Of a stretch of DNA of 40,282 nucleotides, positions 1,124 through 36,754 are shown piece after piece. Origin of the DNA: Escherichia phage P1723; the sequence record MT465573. The stretch is one strand, 5' to 3'. The notes beneath the pieces were generated by a model, which was not told where the DNA came from, searched no databases, and saw only the letters and a list, made by a program, of their open reading frames with translations. Every line of letters starts with the position of its first letter. The stretch's first letter is position 1. Made by a program: the position numbers and the translations under genes.

Positions 1124-1149
1124 TAGCTAACCAACGAATGGAGAACATC

Positions 1150-1602
1150 ATGATTTACACGAACGAACCAGCTAACAAATTCTATGTACTGGTCTCAGCA
1201 GCTCGAGCTAACCTGTCAGACATCGTGAACATGGGTCGTCAGTTAGACCTTAAGGCGCTCTTACAGGCCGAGCCGGAATACTATGGTGTCCTTGAATGTA
1301 CGGGTCTCACTGGCTGTTATCGTGAAGAGGGGCAGGCTGAAGCGTCCACCGAGCGCACTTACCGTGTACTGTGTGACAACAAGGCGCAAGCTATCAACGT
1401 GGCACGTTTGGCCTGTAATGACTTTGAGCAAGACTGTGTGATGGTCTATAAGTCACAGACTCACACCGCTGGTCTACTGTTCTGCAAGGGTCTGGAGGGG
1501 TACAAGGCGACTCGACTGAATGGCTCCTTCCAGCAAGTGGATGCACCTGAGGGTGAGTGCTACACAATGGATGCTGAAGGTCGTATCTGGGAGGTAATCT
1601 AA
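1150..1602 (+). CDS. 0.3: S-adenosylmethionine lyase (T3-type SAMase, anti-restriction), gene 0.3
   Basis: Translation MIYTNEPANKFYVLVSA...CYREE...KAQAINVARLACNDFEQDCVMVYKSQTHTAGL closely resembles T3 gp0.3 SAMase; GGAGAA RBS before the ATG at 1150 (tool ORF starts at 1138). Confidence 0.88.
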   Translation: MIYTNEPANKFYVLVSAARANLSDIVNMGRQLDLKALLQAEPEYYGVLECTGLTGCYREEGQAEASTERTYRVLCDNKAQAINVARLACNDFEQDCVMVYKSQTHTAGLLFCKGLEGYKATRLNGSFQQVDAPEGECYTMDAEGRIWEVI

Positions 1603-2497: not shown

Positions 2498-3652
2498 ATG
2501 AACCCAATGAACGCAGCACATCACGTAGTCCCTACCGTGTATCAAGCACTTGAGTACCGAATGAAAGCACTGAAAGCGCTACCTATCGACCGACTCGATG
2601 AACGCCAACCGGGTCTCGTGGGTATTCTTGCTGACCTTGTAAACTACGAGACTGATTGCGGCTGTGGCGTGGACGATACCGAGTTCGTTAACTCACAGGA
2701 CTGGTGGGGTTCGCTGGTGGCGATGGCTCGCGAGCTGGGATATACGTTCCTAGGGAATGGATTCTTCAGTGCAGTATTCAGCCACGTAAGTCTGCCGGGT
2801 CGCGTCATTAAGGTGGGCTTTAAGAAAGAAGACTCAGGCGCTGCGTACGCTGCATTCTGCCGAGCTAATCCGGGTCTACAAGGGCTGCCAGTAATCCATG
2901 CGATTGCACGACATGAGGCCTGTTACACGGTCGTTCTGGACCACCTTAAGCCATACAGCGCAAAGTCACCTGAAGTCCTCGACCAGTACAACATCGTGAA
3001 GACTCAGATTCTGAATCGTGATAATGACGCATGGGACTTCTGCGAGGCATACGATGAGGTCACTCAGGGTCTACAGGGGACCGCAGCGCACATCCGCGAG
3101 TTCTTCTATGGGGTGGCTGGCTTCGACATGCATGAAGGTAACGTGATGCTGGACCATAACGACAACATCGTCATCACTGACCCGGTGAGCTACACAAACG
3201 GTCTCGGTGAGCCGGATGACTTCAGGGTAGACTTTGAGGCGCTACTTGAGGAAATCCAAGCGATGAAACTTGAGGAAGCTATTGAGAAGTGGCAACAACG
3301 TCACCTCCGTAAGTTGAACAAGCTGGAGAACCGAAAGGCACATCGCCGCCATAAGATTCAACTGGCTAAGATTAGAGCCGAGCGTGAAGAACGCCAAGCG
3401 AAAGCCAATATGGTTCGCAAGGATGATGACCGAGCGTGGGAACTGGTGGTAGGAATTAAGCCGGACGCTAAGTACATCTGTGGTCGCGGTGTGAAGTGGG
3501 CAATCCCTGAGGGTCTTAAGATTCACCACAGGAACGGCATCCGGGTCATCCATGAGAAGAACGTGGAGCGCCACAACCGAATGGTAGAGCAAATCAATAT
3601 GGGCAGACCGCTTGATATTGATAAGCGTCTTGACGCAATGTTTATGGGCTGA
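2498..3652 (+). CDS. 0.7: Serine/threonine protein kinase / host shutoff, gene 0.7
   Basis: 384 aa; conserved blocks KALPI..L.ERQ, NGFFSAVFSH, VIKVGFKKEDSGAAY, FDMHEGNVM, ITDPVS match T7 gp0.7. Confidence 0.9.
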   Translation: MNPMNAAHHVVPTVYQALEYRMKALKALPIDRLDERQPGLVGILADLVNYETDCGCGVDDTEFVNSQDWWGSLVAMARELGYTFLGNGFFSAVFSHVSLPGRVIKVGFKKEDSGAAYAAFCRANPGLQGLPVIHAIARHEACYTVVLDHLKPYSAKSPEVLDQYNIVKTQILNRDNDAWDFCEAYDEVTQGLQGTAAHIREFFYGVAGFDMHEGNVMLDHNDNIVITDPVSYTNGLGEPDDFRVDFEALLEEIQAMKLEEAIEKWQQRHLRKLNKLENRKAHRRHKIQLAKIRAEREERQAKANMVRKDDDRAWELVVGIKPDAKYICGRGVKWAIPEGLKIHHRNGIRVIHEKNVERHNRMVEQINMGRPLDIDKRLDAMFMG

Positions 3653-13722: not shown

Positions 13723-13745
13723 CATTAACCCACACCATAGGGAAC
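13723..13745 (+). promoter_or_regulatory. Phage RNAP promoter (phi4.3-like), variant ATTAACCCACACCATAGGGAAC
   Basis: C instead of T at -4; otherwise consensus; +1 at 13740. Confidence 0.6.
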
Positions 13746-13776
13746 ACTTCCCGTCAACTACTTTAAGGAGTCCATT

Positions 13777-17002: not shown

Positions 17003-17179
17003 ATGAAGCAGAACTTTACGAGACAAGAAGTTATAGACCTGATGAAACAATCGTGGTGGGACGGTCATGGGACCAGTAACTATTGTCCGAACTTATCAGG
17101 CTCCTGTGCGAAAGACGTGCGGGAGAACCTTAAATTACATGAAGAACCGACAGAGGAGAAACAACATGGCTATCACTAA
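17003..17179 (+). CDS. Small hypothetical ORF after DNAP (58 aa)
   Basis: ATG 11 nt after the gene 5 stop with AAGG RBS; overlaps gene 5.5 start by 14 nt. Confidence 0.35.
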   Translation: MKQNFTRQEVIDLMKQSWWDGHGTSNYCPNLSGSCAKDVRENLKLHEEPTEEKQHGYH

Positions 17180-17462
17180 GAAATTCAAAGTATCATTCGA
17201 CGTAACCGTTAAGCTGGGTTCAGTTGAAGAGGAACAACTCAAAGAGACCATTCAGCGCATCGCCAAACAGGTAGCGGCACGAGAGGACGTTGACCACACC
17301 AATAAGGAACTTCTGGTTCAGGCGTTAACTGGTGGCCCGGACGGTGCGGTAGCGTTCATTATCCGTAAGTCCATCCGTGAGGGTGTCAAGGAGATGTTCG
17401 AAGAGATTGGCGATAAGCGTCTCTTCAAAGCATCACCAGCAACTGTACGGGTGGTGAAATAA
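17166..17462 (+). CDS. 5.5: Gene 5.5 protein (H-NS binding in T7)
   Basis: MAITKKFKVSFDVT...SPATVRVV matches T7 gp5.5 at both ends; RBS GAGGAGAAA. Confidence 0.8.
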   Translation: MAITKKFKVSFDVTVKLGSVEEEQLKETIQRIAKQVAAREDVDHTNKELLVQALTGGPDGAVAFIIRKSIREGVKEMFEEIGDKRLFKASPATVRVVK

Positions 17463-17671
17463 TGTCTGACTATCTGAAAGTACTGGCTGCAATCAAGCAG
17501 TGCCCTAAGTCCTTTCAGTCAAACTATGTGCGTAACAACATGGCACTGGTAGCGGAGGCGGCCTCTCGGGGCCACCTTTCGTGTTTGACTGCGAGTGGAC
17601 GTAATGGTGGCGCGTGGGAAATCACTGCGTCTGGTGTTAAGTTCCTGAAAGCTAACGGAGGTTGTGTATGA
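17462..17671 (+). CDS. 5.7: Gene 5.7 protein
   Basis: MSDYLKVLAAIKQCPKSFQSNYVRNN.ALVAEAASRGHLSCLTASGRNGGAWEITASG near-identical to T7 gp5.7; TAATG overlap with 5.5. Confidence 0.85.
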   Translation: MSDYLKVLAAIKQCPKSFQSNYVRNNMALVAEAASRGHLSCLTASGRNGGAWEITASGVKFLKANGGCV

Positions 17672-18060
17672 TTCTCACTAAGAAAGACAACTTGTCCCTG
17701 TGGCACTACATCATGGAGTGTGGTGAGTGCGAGGAAGGTGGTCGCCTGAAGCACGATATGGTGGACGCTACGATGTTCCTTGACGTGACCGCTGAGCGAG
17801 CCGAAGATGAGCTGGACGACGACCGCGAGCTGGCTGTGGTTCTGGCGATGTATGTCGGTAAGCGTCTGACCATTGATGGTTATACTACCGCATACGATGG
17901 GTTCGAGACCTACGGTGAAGAGATTAACGTTCTCGAAGAACGCCGTGAGACTCGCGTTGTGACCACTTGGGTTCACGCTGCTGGCCCAACTCTCGACCCT
18001 GAGCGCAAGCTGCTAGATATCGTTCCGGTTGCCATGAGCACCGCTAAGGAGCTTTCATGA
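17668..18060 (+). CDS. Acidic hypothetical protein in gene 5.9 position (130 aa)
   Basis: ATG at 17668 with GGAGG RBS; ATGA overlaps with both neighbours; highly acidic; no clear similarity to the 52-aa T7 gp5.9. Confidence 0.6.
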   Translation: MILTKKDNLSLWHYIMECGECEEGGRLKHDMVDATMFLDVTAERAEDELDDDRELAVVLAMYVGKRLTIDGYTTAYDGFETYGEEINVLEERRETRVVTTWVHAAGPTLDPERKLLDIVPVAMSTAKELS

Positions 18061-18986
18061 GCTTAATGACACTTAAGGACTTCTACGACTACCGAAATAC
18101 TCAGCCACGAGAGAAGGGACTACTGGTCATGGATGGTGACTGGCTGGTGTTCCAAGCTATGTCTGCGGCTGAGTTCGACGCTTCGTGGGAAGAGGAGATT
18201 TGGCAGCGTTGTTGTGACCACGCCAAGGCTCGTGAGTTCCTGTTCAGCTCTATCGAGACCTATCGTACCCGTAAGAAAGGCTGGGCAACTGCCAAGATTG
18301 TCCTTGCGTTCACTGACTCAATCAACTGGCGTAAGGTCCTCGTTGACGAGAACTACAAGTCCAACCGAAAGGCCACGAAGAAACCTGTAGGTTACTTTGA
18401 GTTCCTCGAAGCGTTATTCAATAACCCTGACTATATATGCATCCGAGAGGACAAACTCGAAGGTGATGACGTTATGGGTATACTTGGTTCAGGTCACTCC
18501 GAGTTTGGCTTCGATAAGGCTGTATTGGTCTCCTGTGACAAGGACTTTAAGACCATACCTAACGTGGACTTCCTGTGGTGTACGACTGGTAACATCCTCG
18601 TGCAGGACCTTAAGTCTGCCGACTTCTGGCACCTCTATCAGACCATCAAGGGCGATATTACTGATGGTTACGGTGGGATTCCGGGATGGGGCGATACGGC
18701 TGAAGAGTTCCTGAATGAACCGTTCTTCACGGAACCCGTAACGTCTATCCTTAAGTCCGGCAAGAACAAAGGACAGGAGGTGACTAAGTGGGTCAAGTCG
18801 GACCCGGATGGTCGGAGTTTGTGGGAGTGCATTGTAAGCATCGCGGCTAAGGCTGGTATGGATGAAGATGGTGTAATCGCTCAGGCGCGTATGGCTCGCA
18901 TCTTGCGATTCGAAGAGTATAACTTTATTGACAAGGAGATTTACTTATGGAACCCACCATCATCCTCAAGTACGTCAGCATTCTGA
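18057..18986 (+). CDS. 6: 5'-3' exonuclease, gene 6
   Basis: GLLVMDGDWLVFQAMSAAEFDASWEEEIW.RCCDHAKAR, LEGDDVMG, CDKDFKTIPN.DFLWCTTGNIL matches T7 gp6. Confidence 0.95.
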   Translation: MSLMTLKDFYDYRNTQPREKGLLVMDGDWLVFQAMSAAEFDASWEEEIWQRCCDHAKAREFLFSSIETYRTRKKGWATAKIVLAFTDSINWRKVLVDENYKSNRKATKKPVGYFEFLEALFNNPDYICIREDKLEGDDVMGILGSGHSEFGFDKAVLVSCDKDFKTIPNVDFLWCTTGNILVQDLKSADFWHLYQTIKGDITDGYGGIPGWGDTAEEFLNEPFFTEPVTSILKSGKNKGQEVTKWVKSDPDGRSLWECIVSIAAKAGMDEDGVIAQARMARILRFEEYNFIDKEIYLWNPPSSSSTSAF

Positions 18987-19083: not shown

Positions 19084-19106
19084 TATTAACCCACACTATA
19101 GGGAGA
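19084..19106 (+). promoter_or_regulatory. Phage RNAP promoter (phi6.5-like)
   Basis: TATTAACCCACACTATAGGGAGAG, +1 G at 19101. Confidence 0.8.
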
Positions 19107-19193
19107 GTACACTTAAAGACCCTATTGTAAGCTACTTAAAGTTCTATTTAAGAGTTTATGATTATGTATTACCAATAACTTAAGGAGGACTTT

Positions 19194-33500: not shown

Positions 33501-34486
33501 ACTACCTGCTTAGCGCTGCACGTCAGGGTCTCATTGGGAACCTTATTGAACACGCTGCGACGGGTAAGTCCTCCAAGTGGCTCAATGAGAACTTCCTGAA
33601 GTCTGCCAGCATCACGCCTGAGCAGTCCAAGGGTATCATTCAGTTCCTCAAAGACCACGCCAAGGTGGACGCTAACGGTAAGTGGACCTTCCCAGACCAA
33701 CACGCGATGAGCCTTGACCCTCGGGCTATGGACTTGTGGCGGATGGCTGATAAGGTTGCAGATGAGACCATGCTCCGACCATCCAAGATTAATGCACAGA
33801 ACGTTAAACAGTTAGGCCCGATTGTTGGCGCTGCGTTGCAGTTCAAAACGTTCGTCATTAAGTCCCTCAATGGTAAGACACTACGTACTTACTATCAGGC
33901 CACTCGCGATGGTCGTGCGATGGACGCTGCATTGTCCACAGGTATCTCCGGGATGCTTGCTGGTTCGTTCTACGTGATGCAGTCCCACATGAAAGCTGCT
34001 GGTCTCCCTGAGAACCAACGTGAGGCTTATCTCTTCAAGGCCTTAACGCCTGAGATGGTTGCCTACGCTGCGGCCTCCCGAAGCTCTATCACTGGTGCGC
34101 CGTTAGGTGTTGCAGATATGCTTCTGGGGCCAATTGGACTGACTCCAAGCCAGTACATGCGTACCACTATCAGTCCTAAGGATGCACCACAGCGAGACCC
34201 TAACAAGGCTTCCTCTGGTCGTTCCGGTACGGCTGAGCTGATGGGTGCTATTGGTCAACAGTTCCCTGTGGCTAACTACGTTGGCTCTACGGTGTCTCTC
34301 GGTCAGAACCTCTGGAACCTCGGAGGTGCCAATGGCCCTCGCGACTCCACGGAGTTCACTACAGGTGTCTATCAGAATATGAAGGAAGTTCTCCCGAACG
34401 ACCCGATTACTCAGAGACTACTTCTGGGTGCTTTCGAAGAGCACATCTACACAACCGAGCGACCTAAGCGTTCAGAGCGCTGGTAA
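30524..34486 (+). CDS. 16: Internal virion protein D with N-terminal lytic transglycosylase domain, gene 16
   Basis: 1320 aa; N-terminus GVSYDLLR...ES.FN..AKS.TGP.G.MQ.T is the transglycosylase motif region of T7 gp16; later segments (FGNPKAI, ILTGRARR, MDLWR.ADKVADE.MLRP) align with T7 gp16. Confidence 0.95.
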   Translation: MAKYDKTIPNQYDGLIRQAADANGVSYDLLRHLTFNESSFNANAKSPTGPKGIMQMTAGTGRAMGLNVFKEDNPADDRYNPEKAIPAAAKLLAGFVKKSNGDELRAALMYNVGEGPTGMPQIEAYDKQDYGSIGDEGRLYIRKLVGSAKSLRSEAIEKFGDFAKGIFEVEAPASKVTRGAPGPETASVNMDTSNLKYDQLNERTAANTWAVQNDQPEENYKPQGADKGLFYKTGDVAKVEVQNSALATMADAALGDNGYDVWSATITPSKWNSYTFTPDDIQKIRESGLRAEYAQSVLGSNAETLDEMIKLAKERQDRQDSVADAGMGAHLVGALAGAAVDPVSYIPIAGAASKGISLGRRMVTVGTQAGALNVASEVLRVGVGGGHADYMMAAGGGLLFGAGLTGVLHRANPREAESVLAATARAESRDAAMRGLPDNSAVSTEGLDFKTSPNGSQYATLDSGEVVLPDGQVLSTSNPLNPNSASQFASVDPEVTKGSMGVRMGSMTDISLHLSRSADDEVRGVAYDLLRSTTGYVKGGSGKSGTVASDVAERLHYTDTSDLTAIEQFTRDAIKDPEWTMGANRGDALARETVVRRAVEAQEDGIGVSKLTKGESKLRDEIFRFTTSKEDAMSNPAMFGNPKAIPVMNKTKLSGKYFPVAYVPEKVAAFRNVFGNSVEDAQGAMQRHFLADYASNPNTKSVVDEMVAAKNGLDSPAAVTPEMVEKWANDKAFGIVNGEFTTNLALDDIASASNSMNLGKNNFLESRHGFSMGFKSQLPDGQMFSLNDLRSFDANKLLRNYARRTNGDIAIHSTGQTTQDLLDKITAIRERAKSDPSGKLKQDANALEDTVKLLTGRARRDPNGAVDMAMGVLKDLSFVAKNAYMGLLNLTEIGGMIAKGNVRALFHGIPVVRDMMRSTKAVSGTDLQKLEYGLMGREVDNMIRPQRADLIQSLRDNSGMGSFGANALGSLKFGTQEIAAAWPMSKLLQGTTNYLLSAARQGLIGNLIEHAATGKSSKWLNENFLKSASITPEQSKGIIQFLKDHAKVDANGKWTFPDQHAMSLDPRAMDLWRMADKVADETMLRPSKINAQNVKQLGPIVGAALQFKTFVIKSLNGKTLRTYYQATRDGRAMDAALSTGISGMLAGSFYVMQSHMKAAGLPENQREAYLFKALTPEMVAYAAASRSSITGAPLGVADMLLGPIGLTPSQYMRTTISPKDAPQRDPNKASSGRSGTAELMGAIGQQFPVANYVGSTVSLGQNLWNLGGANGPRDSTEFTTGVYQNMKEVLPNDPITQRLLLGAFEEHIYTTERPKRSERW

Positions 34487-34487
34487 T

Positions 34488-34510
34488 CATTAACCCACAC
34501 TATAGGGAGA
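34488..34510 (+). promoter_or_regulatory. Phage RNAP promoter (phi17-like), copy 1
   Basis: TCATTAACCCACACTATAGGGAGAGG, +1 at 34505. Confidence 0.8.
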
Positions 34511-34550
34511 GGCAATCACGTCCTCCCTCTAGTTTTCATAAGGAGGCCAC

Positions 34551-34793
34551 ATGGCAAACGTCATTAAGACAGTTTATACGTACCCATTAGATGGCACCAC
34601 GACTGACTTTGCGATTCCCTTTGAGTACCTGTCACGTAAGTTCGTGGTGGTAACGCTCATTGGTCAAGACCGTAAAGAGCTGGTTGTTGTGACCGATTAT
34701 CGCTTCGCTACCCGCAACCTTATCTCTACGACTAAGGCATGGGGACCAGCCGATAACTATCAACAGATTGAGCTACACAACCGAGCGACCTAA
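34551..34793 (+). CDS. Truncated duplicate of the tail fiber N-terminus (gp17 residues 1-74 plus 6 aa), created by the tandem duplication
   Basis: Identical to the first 74 codons of gene 17, then runs through the duplication junction into LHNRAT and a TAA; has its own promoter and AAGGAGG RBS. Confidence 0.6.
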   Translation: MANVIKTVYTYPLDGTTTDFAIPFEYLSRKFVVVTLIGQDRKELVVVTDYRFATRNLISTTKAWGPADNYQQIELHNRAT

Positions 34794-34813
34794 GCGTTCA
34801 GAGCGCTGGTAAT

Positions 34814-34836
34814 CATTAACCCACACTATAGGGAGA
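34814..34836 (+). promoter_or_regulatory. Phage RNAP promoter (phi17-like), copy 2
   Basis: Identical to copy 1; +1 at 34831. Confidence 0.8.
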
Positions 34837-34876
34837 GGCAATCACGTCCTCCCTCTAGTTTTCATAAGGAGGCCAC

Positions 34877-36754
34877 ATGGCAAACGTCATTAAGACAGTT
34901 TATACGTACCCATTAGATGGCACCACGACTGACTTTGCGATTCCCTTTGAGTACCTGTCACGTAAGTTCGTGGTGGTAACGCTCATTGGTCAAGACCGTA
35001 AAGAGCTGGTTGTTGTGACCGATTATCGCTTCGCTACCCGCAACCTTATCTCTACGACTAAGGCATGGGGACCAGCCGATAACTATCAACAGATTGAGAT
35101 TCGTCGATACACTTCTGCAAGTGAACGTCTGGTTGACTTCAGTGATGGTTCCATCCTGCGAGCTACCGACCTTAACGTATCTCAGATTCAGACCCTGCAC
35201 GTTGCTGAAGAAGCGCGAGACCTGACCGCTGATACCATTGGCGTTAACAACGATGGCAACCTTGATGGTCGTGGTCGTCGTATCGTTAACGTGGCAGATG
35301 GTGTGGACGCTGGTGACGTTGTTACCGTAGGCCAGATGAACCGTTGGTCTGGTAGTGCTGCCGACAGCGCCAATAAAGCCAAGGTGTCCGAGACCAACGC
35401 CAAGACCTCTGAGACAAACTCAAAGGCTTCCGAGCTGTTAGCCCAGAAGTGGGCTGAGAACCCTAAAGGAACACCTGTGGTCTCCAGTCAGTATTCCGCT
35501 AAGCATTGGGCGTTGACCTCTGAGGATAGCGCTAATGCGTCTGCAACCTCTGCGGGTAACTCTCAGGCACAAGTAGCGAACGCTAAGACACAGGCTGACC
35601 GTGCTGGTGGTTACGCCAATGACGCTATGGGTTACCGCGATGCAGCCAACACGTCTGCTCAACAGGCCGCTGTATCTGAGGGCAACGCTGCGACATCTGC
35701 AAGTAACGCAAAGACTGAATCCGATAAGCTAATTCAGTTTAACACTCTGGTTGACCGGATTAACGGAGTGGCTGTACGTCAGGTTGGTGAGTTTGAGGTC
35801 CACAACTCTCGTACTTACGCTAAGCCGGGTACAGTGTATGGGGATGGTCAACTGCTGAACCGCAACCAGTTCCCTGCACTAGTAGCTGAGTTACTGGCAG
35901 GACACCTCCCGGTTGTCTCTGACTCCGAATGGCTGGCTGACCCCGGTAAACGTGGTTGCTATACCCTAGGTAACGGTACGACCACTTTCCGTGTACCAGA
36001 CCTCAACGGTGTCTATGCGGGTTCCATTAAGGCTCCTGTGTTCCGTGGTGACGCTGGGTTTACTGTAGGTGATGTTCAGAAGTCAGCTCTACCAAACATT
36101 GAGGGTCTGATTGCACTTGCCGATAATGAGCTGGCCTCCAGTGCCTCTGGTGCATTCTACAACGCTGGGCGCTCCAACAAAGGTGCAACTAACGATACCG
36201 GCGGTGCTCAGTTAGGTTTCGACGCGTCACTGTGGAACGAAATCTACAAGAAGGACACCAACGAAGCCCGAATGAACTCCGTGGTAATCGTATGGGTCAT
36301 CCGTACTCACGGGGTGGTGAACAATCCGGGTTCTGTAGATGCCGCTGTGTTGTCTTCTCGTGTCGAGCAGGTTTATACCGAACTGCTTACACGTATGGTT
36401 GCTAATGAGAACCTCCAGAAGTCTGGACAGAAGTTCCTTCGCCGAGTGTTTAGCGACCGCACGTCTCAGGGGCAACTTTCGACTGGAAGAACAGTGACTT
36501 GCTCTGAGGATATTCTCAACAAGATGCTAGTAATTGGCGCACACACCGATAGCCAAAACCCAAACTCTCAGATATATCGTTGTAGCCCGTTCCTCCAGCC
36601 GAACACTGCTGACCGAATGCACCTCACTCTATCTAACTGGTCGTACACCTTAGAGTTCCCTGCGGCGAATCAAGTTAAACTAGTAGCGGCTACAGGTTCT
36701 GGAGTACAGGCAATCAACTATATTGACGTAGTGTGCGACTACCCACAAACGTAA
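34877..36754 (+). CDS. 17: Tail fiber protein, gene 17 (T7-like N-terminal domain, divergent distal region)
   Basis: 625 aa; residues 1-150 (MANVIKTV..FEYL.RKFVVVTLIG.DRK...DYRFATR...KAWGPAD, GSILRA.DLNV.QIQT.HVAEEARDLT.DTIGVNNDG.LD.RGRRIVN) match T7 gp17; distal part differs and contains a tail-collar-like motif. Confidence 0.95.
   Translation: MANVIKTVYTYPLDGTTTDFAIPFEYLSRKFVVVTLIGQDRKELVVVTDYRFATRNLISTTKAWGPADNYQQIEIRRYTSASERLVDFSDGSILRATDLNVSQIQTLHVAEEARDLTADTIGVNNDGNLDGRGRRIVNVADGVDAGDVVTVGQMNRWSGSAADSANKAKVSETNAKTSETNSKASELLAQKWAENPKGTPVVSSQYSAKHWALTSEDSANASATSAGNSQAQVANAKTQADRAGGYANDAMGYRDAANTSAQQAAVSEGNAATSASNAKTESDKLIQFNTLVDRINGVAVRQVGEFEVHNSRTYAKPGTVYGDGQLLNRNQFPALVAELLAGHLPVVSDSEWLADPGKRGCYTLGNGTTTFRVPDLNGVYAGSIKAPVFRGDAGFTVGDVQKSALPNIEGLIALADNELASSASGAFYNAGRSNKGATNDTGGAQLGFDASLWNEIYKKDTNEARMNSVVIVWVIRTHGVVNNPGSVDAAVLSSRVEQVYTELLTRMVANENLQKSGQKFLRRVFSDRTSQGQLSTGRTVTCSEDILNKMLVIGAHTDSQNPNSQIYRCSPFLQPNTADRMHLTLSNWSYTLEFPAANQVKLVAATGSGVQAINYIDVVCDYPQT

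What the first reader, a model, noticed from the sequence alone, without database searches (positions are those of the whole stretch)
17668..18060. Acidic 130-aa protein at the gp5.9 (RecBCD inhibitor) position
T7 gp5.9 is a 52-aa acidic DNA mimic that inhibits RecBCD. The ORF here is 2.5 times longer, strongly acidic (Asp/Glu runs such as AERAEDELDDDRELA) and carries a CGECEEGG segment. It is translationally coupled to genes 5.7 and 6 through ATGA overlaps. It may be a larger DNA-mimic anti-nuclease or anti-defence protein.
Basis: inference. Interest (0 to 1): 0.45.

Follow-up and report, generated by a model that had tools for sequence, protein, structure and literature searches.

The report
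Acidic orphan protein replacing T7 gp5.9
A T7-like coliphage carries, where T7 keeps its RecBCD inhibitor gp5.9, a real and conserved 130-residue acidic protein with no relative of known function, which is probably another host-protein inhibitor, though nothing here shows what it binds.

Summary
ORF 17668-18060 encodes a 130-aa protein (pI 4.5, net charge -14) with ATGA overlaps to genes 5.7 and 6. It has a GGAGG ribosome-binding site, and dN/dS is 0.14-0.30. The window is a near-copy (98.9%) of Escherichia phage SRT7.

The slot between genes 5.7 and 6 is an accessory-gene hotspot, empty in some loci and holding eight or more unrelated small genes in others. gp5.9 and this family never co-occur.

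One result was unexpected. The C-terminal tail motif (P..VAM[AS]..AK) also ends unrelated slot proteins.

Function remains inferred. The leading idea is an acidic decoy or inhibitor of a host DNA enzyme, with RecBCD the prime candidate. This is a moderately interesting candidate and is unproven.

The parts
13723..13749 (+). Phage-RNA-polymerase promoter (consensus ATTAACCCACACTATAGGGAGA) that heads the class II transcription unit containing genes 5, 5.5, 5.7, X and 6
   Evidence: Member of a 13-copy direct-repeat family. No other copy occurs before 19084.
17166..17462 (+). Gene 5.5 (H-NS inhibitor family)
   Evidence: Pfam PF11247 Phage_T7_55 at E 6.5e-24 and phrog_1452.
17462..17671 (+). Gene 5.7 (69 aa). 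Its stop overlaps the start of X in ATGA.
   Evidence: phrog_1334 at E 4.7e-38; sequence.
17657..17661 (+). Shine-Dalgarno GGAGG, 6 nt upstream of the ATG of X
   Evidence: Read directly from the sequence.
17668..18060 (+). ORF X: 130-aa acidic protein (pI 4.48, net -14). It is identical in protein to the SRT7 product annotated 'gp21' (locus_tag HOT56_gp21, YP_009804615.1).
   Evidence: dN/dS is 0.14-0.30.
17668..17943 (+). N-terminal alpha/beta domain (residues 1-92). Secondary structure is b2-4, a9-18, b20-28, b31-39, a42-51, a53-61, b65-74, b78-81, b85-90. It carries the superfamily motifs EGGR[IL]KHD (residues 23-30) and GYTTxYDGFE (residues 71-80).
   Evidence: AlphaFold2 pLDDT is 88-97 over this span. 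PHROG 19215 matches residues 8-91 at E 1.5e-12. Alignments A2 and A4.
17791..17850 (+). Acidic helix pair a2-a3 (residues 42-61, AERAEDELDDDRELAVVLAM). D47, E48, D52 and E54 are invariant in the close family. The region varies in length and sequence, but stays acidic, across the superfamily.
18001..18057 (+). Disordered C-terminal tail ERKLLDIVPVAMSTAKELS (residues 112-130), carrying the portable motif P-x-[VLI]-A-M-[AS]-x-A-K
   Evidence: pLDDT is 44-55. It is the best-conserved stretch of the close family. The same motif ends unrelated slot proteins. The chance expectation is about 0.001 per C-terminus. Its DNA forms a separate conserved island.
18046..18051 (+). Shine-Dalgarno AAGGAG of gene 6, embedded in codons K127-E128 of X
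   Evidence: Read directly from the sequence.
18057..18986 (+). Gene 6, the 5'-3' exonuclease. Its start overlaps the stop of X in ATGA.
   Evidence: phrog_107 at E 5.7e-77, with a weak PF02739 match.
19084..19110 (+). Next phage promoter (the phi6.5 equivalent). It closes the unit that contains X.

Best explanation
ORF X is a genuine middle (class II) accessory gene of an SRT7-like Foetvirus. It encodes a compact, strongly acidic alpha/beta domain of a fold not seen in solved structures, followed by a disordered tail that carries a conserved short peptide motif. It occupies a hypervariable slot next to the phage recombination exonuclease, and T7 fills that slot with the RecBCD and MukBEF inhibitor gp5.9.

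The most likely mode of action is stoichiometric binding and inhibition of a host DNA-processing protein, with the acidic surface acting as a nucleic-acid decoy. RecBCD is the prime candidate. On this reading X is a non-homologous functional analogue of gp5.9, not a member of its family.

Shown here: the gene is real, is under purifying selection, is co-transcribed and translationally coupled with genes 5.7 and 6, is acidic across its whole family, has an unmatched fold, and is mutually exclusive with gp5.9. Inferred: that it inhibits a host protein, that it does so by charge mimicry, and that the target is RecBCD.
For: The gene is real and selected. It lies in a class II unit with no internal promoter or terminator. 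It has net charge -14, and all 69 superfamily proteins carry net -10 to -20 despite 15-35% identity, so the charge itself is conserved. The phage has no gp5.9 homologue. X is one of only two small strongly acidic + strand ORFs in the window. The slot is an accessory hotspot with eight or more unrelated occupants, four of them acidic. gp5.9 (16 loci) and the X superfamily (5 loci) never co-occur. In annotated phages, gp5.9 is found in 187 records (none listed under Klebsiella), and the Mysterion-type relative is found in 132 records, which are mostly Klebsiella, Escherichia and Salmonella phages. RecBCD modulators of other phages also lie beside the phage recombination genes: lambda gam next to exo and bet, and P22 abc next to erf (bioRxiv 10.64898/2026.07.10.737580). 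gp5.9 itself is a small acidic DNA mimic (PMC9836394) that also inhibits MukBEF (PMC7617805). All relatives are small standalone phage proteins with no enzymatic domain and no fusions, as expected for binders.
Against: There is no direct evidence for any target. The fold matches no known DNA mimic or inhibitor. The slot gives little functional information: it is empty in 18 of 72 loci and holds basic proteins in 22. The acidic helix region is the least conserved part of the superfamily alignment. Relatives occur in T4-like phages. T4 protects its DNA ends with gp2 (bioRxiv 10.64898/2026.07.10.737580); that these particular phages encode gp2 was not checked. gp5.9 is annotated 'not essential' in the T7 record, so a phage does not strictly need a replacement. 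The surface charge geometry could not be examined because no model coordinates were available.
Confidence: 0.35

Rival explanations
1. X inhibits or modulates a different host target through an ordinary protein-protein interface rather than DNA mimicry. The target could be a defence system, or a host factor of the kind hit by its neighbours (gp5.5 and H-NS, gp5.7 and the stationary-phase sigma factor). On this reading acidity is incidental or serves solubility.
For: The slot holds unrelated acidic and basic proteins, which implies diverse targets. The neighbours 5.5 and 5.7 are host-takeover proteins (annotations). The conserved motifs (K28-H29-D30, G71, G78, E80) lie on strands and loops of the domain, not in the acidic helices. 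The superfamily also occurs in T4-like phages in unrelated contexts, between a nudix hydrolase and the endolysin.
Against: Strong net negative charge persists family-wide despite very low identity, which argues that the charge is functional. No target can be named. PADLOC, Pfam and NCBIfam give no hint.
Confidence: 0.3
2. X is an accessory factor of the phage's own replication or recombination machinery. The conserved C-terminal tail docks it onto the gene 6 exonuclease (or the polymerase or helicase), and translational coupling ensures co-production. The variable N-domains are alternative cargo or regulators.
For: X is translationally coupled to gene 6 through an ATGA overlap. The tail motif is found only in T7-like members lying directly upstream of gene 6 and never in T4-like relatives. 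The same tail ends three unrelated N-domains, against a chance expectation of about 0.001. The tail DNA is a conserved island separate from gene 6 homology. It is not explained by a conserved RNA structure. The tail is predicted disordered, as short linear motifs are. Kayfunavirus relatives end in GGLDDDF(E) or GGLDDGF; this resembles, from my memory only, the acidic aromatic C-termini of T7 gp2.5 and gp4 and of E. coli SSB.
Against: Part of the tail (codons A-K-E/G) is simply the gene 6 Shine-Dalgarno. dS is lower in the tail than in the domain, 0.33-0.64 against 0.86-2.7. Together these allow a nucleotide-level constraint on gene 6 translation initiation. Many family members (Mysterion, Przondovirus and PSTCR2 types) and many phages lack the tail or the whole gene, so it cannot be a core replisome part. 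No interaction was tested.
Confidence: 0.15
3. X is a small enzyme that uses the conserved K-H-D and D-G-x-E residues. One possibility is a nucleic-acid- or nucleotide-modifying activity.
For: K28, H29, D30, G71, G78 and I86 are invariant in the N-domain alignment of the X, Mysterion and T4-like types.
Against: H29 and D30 are replaced (Y and A/S/G) in the Kayfunavirus and Przondovirus members. Only M1, K28, G71 and G78 are invariant, with G64 and E80 nearly so, across the full superfamily. There is no match to any catalytic fold or family. The domain is only about 90 residues.
Confidence: 0.05
4. The ORF is a non-functional remnant or a mis-called reading frame.
For: No function is known. It is annotated only as 'hypothetical protein'.
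Against: dN/dS is 0.14-0.30. The ORF has a strong SD and is conserved at the same slot in 10 clusters down to 58% identity. AlphaFold2 predicts a confident fold. It has remote homologues in several phage families.
Confidence: 0.02

Closest known systems
T7 gp5.9 (RecBCD inhibitor; also inhibits MukBEF)
   Same: Both sit in the same genomic slot between genes 5.7 and 6 and overlap gene 6. Both are expressed in the middle (class II) period. Both are small and strongly acidic (gp5.9 has pI 4.08 and net -8). The two are mutually exclusive in the slot.
   Different: No sequence similarity: the best BLASTP hit is E 1.2 over 16 residues. X has 130 aa against 52. X is predicted as an alpha/beta domain plus a disordered tail, whereas gp5.9 is a parallel coiled-coil dimer (PMC9836394). 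The target of X is unknown.
Uncharacterized phage superfamily PHROG 19215 / 4382 (for example Dickeya phage Mysterion gp31, Pectobacterium phage Jarilo gp26, the Kayfunavirus 149-150-aa proteins, Proteus phage Pm5461 gp105, Morganella phage MP1 gp103)
   Same: X is a member. The HMM match has E 1.5e-12 over residues 8-91. The motifs EGGR[IL]KHD and GYTTYxDGFE are shared. BFVD models of relatives have similar predicted folds (TM 0.45-0.54). All members are acidic. The T7-like members sit in the same slot.
   Different: The X subfamily is rare: 3 of 50,697 phage records and 10 clusters among 5.8 billion proteins. In place of the family's most conserved helix (LMSHLNSEDNDMAxEF), X has only a degenerate, proline-containing stretch. 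It has a longer acidic helix pair. No member has a known function.
Known DNA-mimic inhibitors (Ocr, ArdA, Arn, lambda Gam, UGI)
   Same: They are small, highly acidic phage proteins. Accessory and anti-host roles are plausible for X as well.
Lambda gam next to exo/bet, and P22 abc1/abc2 next to erf: recombination-locus hotspots
   Same: In these phages an inhibitor gene lies beside the phage's own recombination nuclease, in a modular and variable locus (bioRxiv 10.64898/2026.07.10.737580).
   Different: There is no homology. The analogy is positional only.

Membership tests
T7 gp5.9 family (PHROG/NCBI name 'Gp5.9-like inhibitor of recBCD nuclease') | Detectable sequence homology to T7 gp5.9 | tested here: not met
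   BLASTP of T7 gp5.9 against X gives E 1.2 over 16 aa. The PHROG scan of X returns only families of unknown function. tblastn of gp5.9 against the whole window gives a best E of 2.1.
T7 gp5.9 family (PHROG/NCBI name 'Gp5.9-like inhibitor of recBCD nuclease') | Helical protein of about 50-60 aa that forms a parallel coiled-coil dimer | tested here: not met
   The AlphaFold2 model (pLDDT 85.8) is a beta-alpha-beta-beta-alpha-alpha-beta-beta-beta domain plus a disordered tail. The gp5.9 architecture is taken from PMC9836394.
T7 gp5.9 family (PHROG/NCBI name 'Gp5.9-like inhibitor of recBCD nuclease') | Location between genes 5.7 and 6, overlapping gene 6 | tested here: met
T7 gp5.9 family (PHROG/NCBI name 'Gp5.9-like inhibitor of recBCD nuclease') | Binds RecBCD and blocks its DNA-binding site | not testable with these tools
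   This needs biochemistry or complex prediction.
DNA-mimic proteins (functional class) | High net negative charge in a small protein | tested here: met
   pI 4.48, net -14 over 130 aa. The trait is family-wide, net -10 to -20.
DNA-mimic proteins (functional class) | Surface carboxylates arranged like a DNA phosphate backbone | not testable with these tools
   The model coordinates are not exposed. Only the secondary structure and pLDDT were returned.
DNA-mimic proteins (functional class) | Structural similarity to a known mimic (Ocr, ArdA, Arn, Gam, UGI and others) | tested here: not met
PHROG 19215 / 4382 superfamily (uncharacterized) | Significant match to the family HMM over the N-terminal domain | tested here: met
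   phrog_19215 at E 1.5e-12 over residues 8-91, and phrog_4382 at E 0.0013. Eight of 13 seed relatives match each family.
Zinc-knuckle / CxxC metal-binding proteins (suggested by 'CGECEEGG') | Conserved Cys/His ligand set | tested here: not met
   There are only two Cys. C21 is replaced in P0006 and P0008 (CGKV). Neither Cys is kept in the remote relatives.

The most novel reading that the evidence does not exclude
The X-type domain is a new fold of acidic anti-nuclease decoy. The shared C-terminal tail (P-x-x-[VLI]-A-M-[AS]-x-[AG]-[KG]) is a portable docking peptide that tethers interchangeable effector domains, encoded in the 5.7|6 slot, to a common partner such as the gene 6 exonuclease or recombination machinery. 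That would be a modular 'tail-addressed' accessory-protein system in T7-like phages.
Probability: 0.12. Interest if true: 0.7.

Novelty: new variant of a known kind. Interest (0 to 1): 0.45.

Why it matters
RecBCD is a hub of phage-host conflict, and several abortive-infection systems (retron Ec48, P2 OLD and others) fire when it is inhibited. Only a handful of structurally unrelated inhibitors are known (Gam, gp5.9, Abc2, T4 gp2).

A widespread, uncharacterized acidic family sits in the gp5.9 slot of Klebsiella, Salmonella and E. coli T7-like phages, many of them therapy candidates. If it is a new inhibitor fold, it would extend the catalogue of anti-defence proteins and of potential triggers for guard systems.

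The finding that the 5.7|6 junction is an accessory-gene hotspot gives a defined place to mine further candidates. The shared tail on unrelated domains is a concrete, cheap-to-test hypothesis about modular targeting. If instead the protein has another target, it is still a compact domain with no match in the PDB and worth solving.

Tried and rejected
1. Homology to gp5.9. BLASTP, tblastn over the whole window, and PHROG all found none.
2. Zinc or CxxC motif. Rejected because C21 is not conserved.
3. Annotation by profile libraries. Pfam, NCBIfam and PADLOC gave no hits, and the PHROG hits are all of 'unknown function'.
4. PDB by sequence. No hits at E up to 10.
6. Exhaustive single-sequence phmmer against 1.84 billion representatives found only its own cluster.
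7. Search for fusions to known domains with an N-domain profile. All 33 hits are standalone proteins of 104-149 aa without Pfam domains.
8. Bacterial-genome scan with the superfamily alignment.
9. RNA-structure explanation of the conserved tail island. RNAalifold predicted 0 pairs, and single-sequence z-scores ranged from -1.8 to +0.8. Rejected.
10. 'The tail is only the edge of the gene 6 homology block.' Rejected, because blastn shows a separate island with non-alignable sequence on both sides.
11. Literature. No paper in the held library reports a function for SRT7 gp21 or for its Kayfunavirus or Przondovirus relatives. The accessory-gene screen of Silas et al. does not mention this slot.
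12. Surface-charge analysis of the model was not possible because no coordinates were available.

Full report
OBSERVATION. The window is a T7-like phage genome, 98.9% identical over the 8-kb region tested to Escherichia phage SRT7 (Studiervirinae, genus Foetvirus). The ATG is at 17668 and the stop at 18058-18060, giving 130 codons. ATGA overlaps join it to the 69-aa gene 5.7 (17462-17671) and to the gene 6 exonuclease (18057-18986). A GGAGG lies 6 nt upstream of the start. The protein has pI 4.48, with 28 Asp/Glu against 14 Lys/Arg. The neighbours are confirmed by profiles: Pfam Phage_T7_55 for gp5.5, phrog_1334 for gp5.7 and phrog_107 for the exonuclease. In T7 the same slot holds the 52-aa gp5.9.

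IS IT A REAL GENE? Yes.
- It is annotated as a CDS in SRT7 (product note 'gp21', locus_tag HOT56_gp21, 'hypothetical protein').
- A search of 5.8 billion proteins found 10 clusters at 58-98% identity. Wherever context could be read, they lie in the order 5.5, 5.7, X, 6.
- Pairwise dN/dS is 0.14-0.30.
- AlphaFold2 with a 36-sequence alignment gives mean pLDDT 85.8, with values of 88-97 for residues 1-100.
- Phage promoters (consensus ATTAACCCACACTATAGGGAGA) lie at 13723 and 19084 with none between, and no convincing terminator intervenes. X is therefore co-transcribed with the class II DNA-metabolism genes.

WHAT IT BELONGS TO. X matches PHROG 19215 (E 1.5e-12, residues 8-91) and, weakly, PHROG 4382. 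Both are of unknown function. Two motifs, EGGR[IL]KHD and GYTTYxDGFE, tie it to two groups of relatives.
- Proteins of 124-151 aa at the same 5.7|6 slot in other Studiervirinae. These include Dickeya phage Mysterion gp31, Pectobacterium phage Jarilo gp26, Kayfunavirus phages of E. coli and Salmonella, Przondovirus phages of Klebsiella, and Providencia phage PSTCR2. The Mysterion-type query alone finds 132 phage records.
- Proteins of 135-149 aa in T4-like phages of Proteus, Morganella and Providencia, located between a nudix hydrolase and the endolysin.

BFVD fold matches (TM 0.45-0.54) are likewise all uncharacterized phage proteins. Profile searches recovered 69 proteins. Most are 104-151 aa (two are shorter, 84 and 91 aa). 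None is fused to another domain, none has a Pfam match, and every one carries net charge -10 to -20. The SRT7-type subfamily itself is rare, found in 3 of 50,697 phage records. In place of the most conserved helix of the other T7-like members (LMSHLNSEDNDMAxEF), it has only a degenerate, proline-containing stretch. It lies, however, in the most variable linker of the superfamily, where only the acidity is kept, not the sequence.

THE SLOT. I anchored 74 IMG/VR loci on gp5.7 and classified what lies before the exonuclease in the 72 complete ones. The junction is an accessory-gene hotspot:

| Occupant | Loci |
|---|---|
| Empty | 18 |
| gp5.9 | 16 |
| Basic 58-60-aa protein | 12 |
| Basic 68-90-aa protein | 10 |
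| Acidic 96-117-aa protein | 6 |
| Very acidic 53-56-aa protein ending EEEDDE | 5 |
| X superfamily | 5 |
| Singletons | 2 |

gp5.9 and the X superfamily never co-occur. This cuts both ways. The slot behaves like other anti-host hotspots next to phage recombination genes (lambda gam/exo/bet, P22 abc/erf; bioRxiv 10.64898/2026.07.10.737580). But position alone does not say which function a given occupant has.

AN UNEXPECTED FEATURE: THE TAIL. The last 19 residues of X (ERKLLDIVPVAMSTAKELS) are predicted disordered, yet they are the best-conserved stretch of the subfamily. The same motif ends proteins with unrelated N-terminal domains in the same slot.
- L015, an acidic cluster-3 protein, ends ...KLLDVVVPAMSVAKAASHE. 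Its sisters end ...YREVSDE.
- L016 and L017, basic cluster-2 proteins in contigs like Pektosvirus PP81, end ...PLPATLAMAKVGQHDER. Their sisters end ...KIQEVTSE.
- The Kayfunavirus X-like proteins end ...LMPATVAMATGGLDDDFE.
- Jarilo gp26 ends ...ILPTIVAMAKAGSYE.

The motif has a background frequency of about 4e-5 per residue, or roughly 0.001 per 25-residue C-terminus. It is absent from all T4-like relatives.

Part of it is explained trivially, because the codons A-K-E/G spell the Shine-Dalgarno sequence of gene 6. The rest is not. At the DNA level the tail is a separate island (33 nt at 82% for L016 against L008, and 19 nt at 95% for L016 against L007). It is flanked by non-alignable sequence, including the first ~60 nt of gene 6. 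No conserved RNA structure is predicted. Tail-bearing loci are scattered over the exonuclease tree. dS is lower in the tail than in the domain, so some nucleotide-level constraint on gene 6 translation initiation remains possible.

The simplest history is that an X-type protein with a tail is ancestral in this slot, and that N-domains were later replaced in frame while the tail was kept. Whether the tail is a docking peptide (for gp6 or another partner) or a by-product of translational coupling is open.

MECHANISM. Nothing here measures function. My best-supported reading (confidence about 0.35) is that X is a stoichiometric binder and inhibitor of a host DNA-processing enzyme. On this reading its acidic surface acts as a decoy, and RecBCD is the prime candidate because of the slot, the absence of gp5.9 and the mutual exclusivity. 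It would then be a non-homologous analogue of gp5.9.

The main rivals are:
- an inhibitor of some other host or defence protein through an ordinary interface (0.3);
- a phage replication or recombination accessory factor addressed by its tail (0.15);
- a small enzyme (0.05);
- a non-functional ORF (0.02, effectively refuted).

COMPARISON AND NOVELTY. X works, at most, like gp5.9, but it is not a member of that family: the sequence and fold tests both failed. It is a member of an uncharacterized phage superfamily (PHROG 19215/4382). I rate it a new variant of a known kind, a candidate anti-host accessory protein with an unmatched fold. Interest is moderate (0.45). A specialist would not be surprised to find an unknown acidic gene in this slot. 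The breadth of the family in Klebsiella, Salmonella and E. coli phages, the unmatched fold and the portable tail nevertheless make it a worthwhile and easily testable candidate.

Noticed in passing
window 18001-18057; L015 2989-3054; L016 2908-2973; L008 1855-1920; L007 1861-1926: A C-terminal tail motif (P-x-x-[VLI]-A-M-[AS]-x-[AG]-[KG]) is shared by slot proteins with unrelated N-terminal domains, and sister proteins of each family lack it. Its DNA is a conserved island separate from gene 6 homology. No conserved RNA structure is predicted.
   Followed up: partly
L013-L086 (IMG/VR loci anchored on gp5.7), slot at about 2700-3260 of each locus: The gene 5.7|6 junction of T7-like phages is an accessory-gene hotspot. 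It is empty in 18 of 72 loci and otherwise holds at least eight unrelated small genes. These include an uncharacterized very acidic 53-56-aa protein ending ...EEEDDE and an acidic 96-117-aa 'PWSDELP...GDWTD' protein, both of which are further gp5.9-analogue candidates.
   Followed up: partly
L008 1468-1920, L012 1465-1914; proteins P0011-P0037: The Kayfunavirus relatives of X end in ...GGLDDDF(E) or ...GGLDDGF. From memory, this acidic aromatic C-terminus resembles those of T7 gp2.5 and gp4 and of E. coli SSB, which dock onto polymerase or repair proteins. X itself lacks this ending.
   Followed up: no
window 34447-34746 and 34773-35072: A perfect 300-nt direct duplication (spacing 326 nt), with a phage promoter in each copy (34488, 34814). 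It could be a real tandem duplication or an assembly artefact. The window is about 400 nt longer than SRT7.
   Followed up: no
window 1138-1602 (+): Apart from X, this 154-aa ORF at the gene 0.3 position is the only small (35-160 aa) + strand ORF with net charge <= -6 (here -8). It matches phrog_2226 (E 4.6e-46, labelled 'SAM-dependent methyltransferase'). From memory, it looks like the T3-type SAM-degrading anti-restriction protein rather than T7 Ocr.
   Followed up: partly
L003 (contig SRR27430142_288) against window and L002: An X-family member (P0008, 72% identical) is linked to an exonuclease from a different clade (near the Jarilo and Przondovirus exonucleases) than the window's. This indicates recombination around the slot.
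   Followed up: no
L009 1877-2053 (Klebsiella phage SH-Kp 152234): Przondovirus phages carry an X-like gene followed by a basic 58-aa ORF before the exonuclease, so the slot can hold two accessory genes at once. The 58-aa protein is not similar to gp5.9.
   Followed up: partly
window 17067-17462: The start of gene 5.5 is ambiguous. The longest ORF starts at 17067, the SRT7 annotation corresponds to 17139, and the Pfam Phage_T7_55 match begins at the Met at 17166.
   Followed up: no
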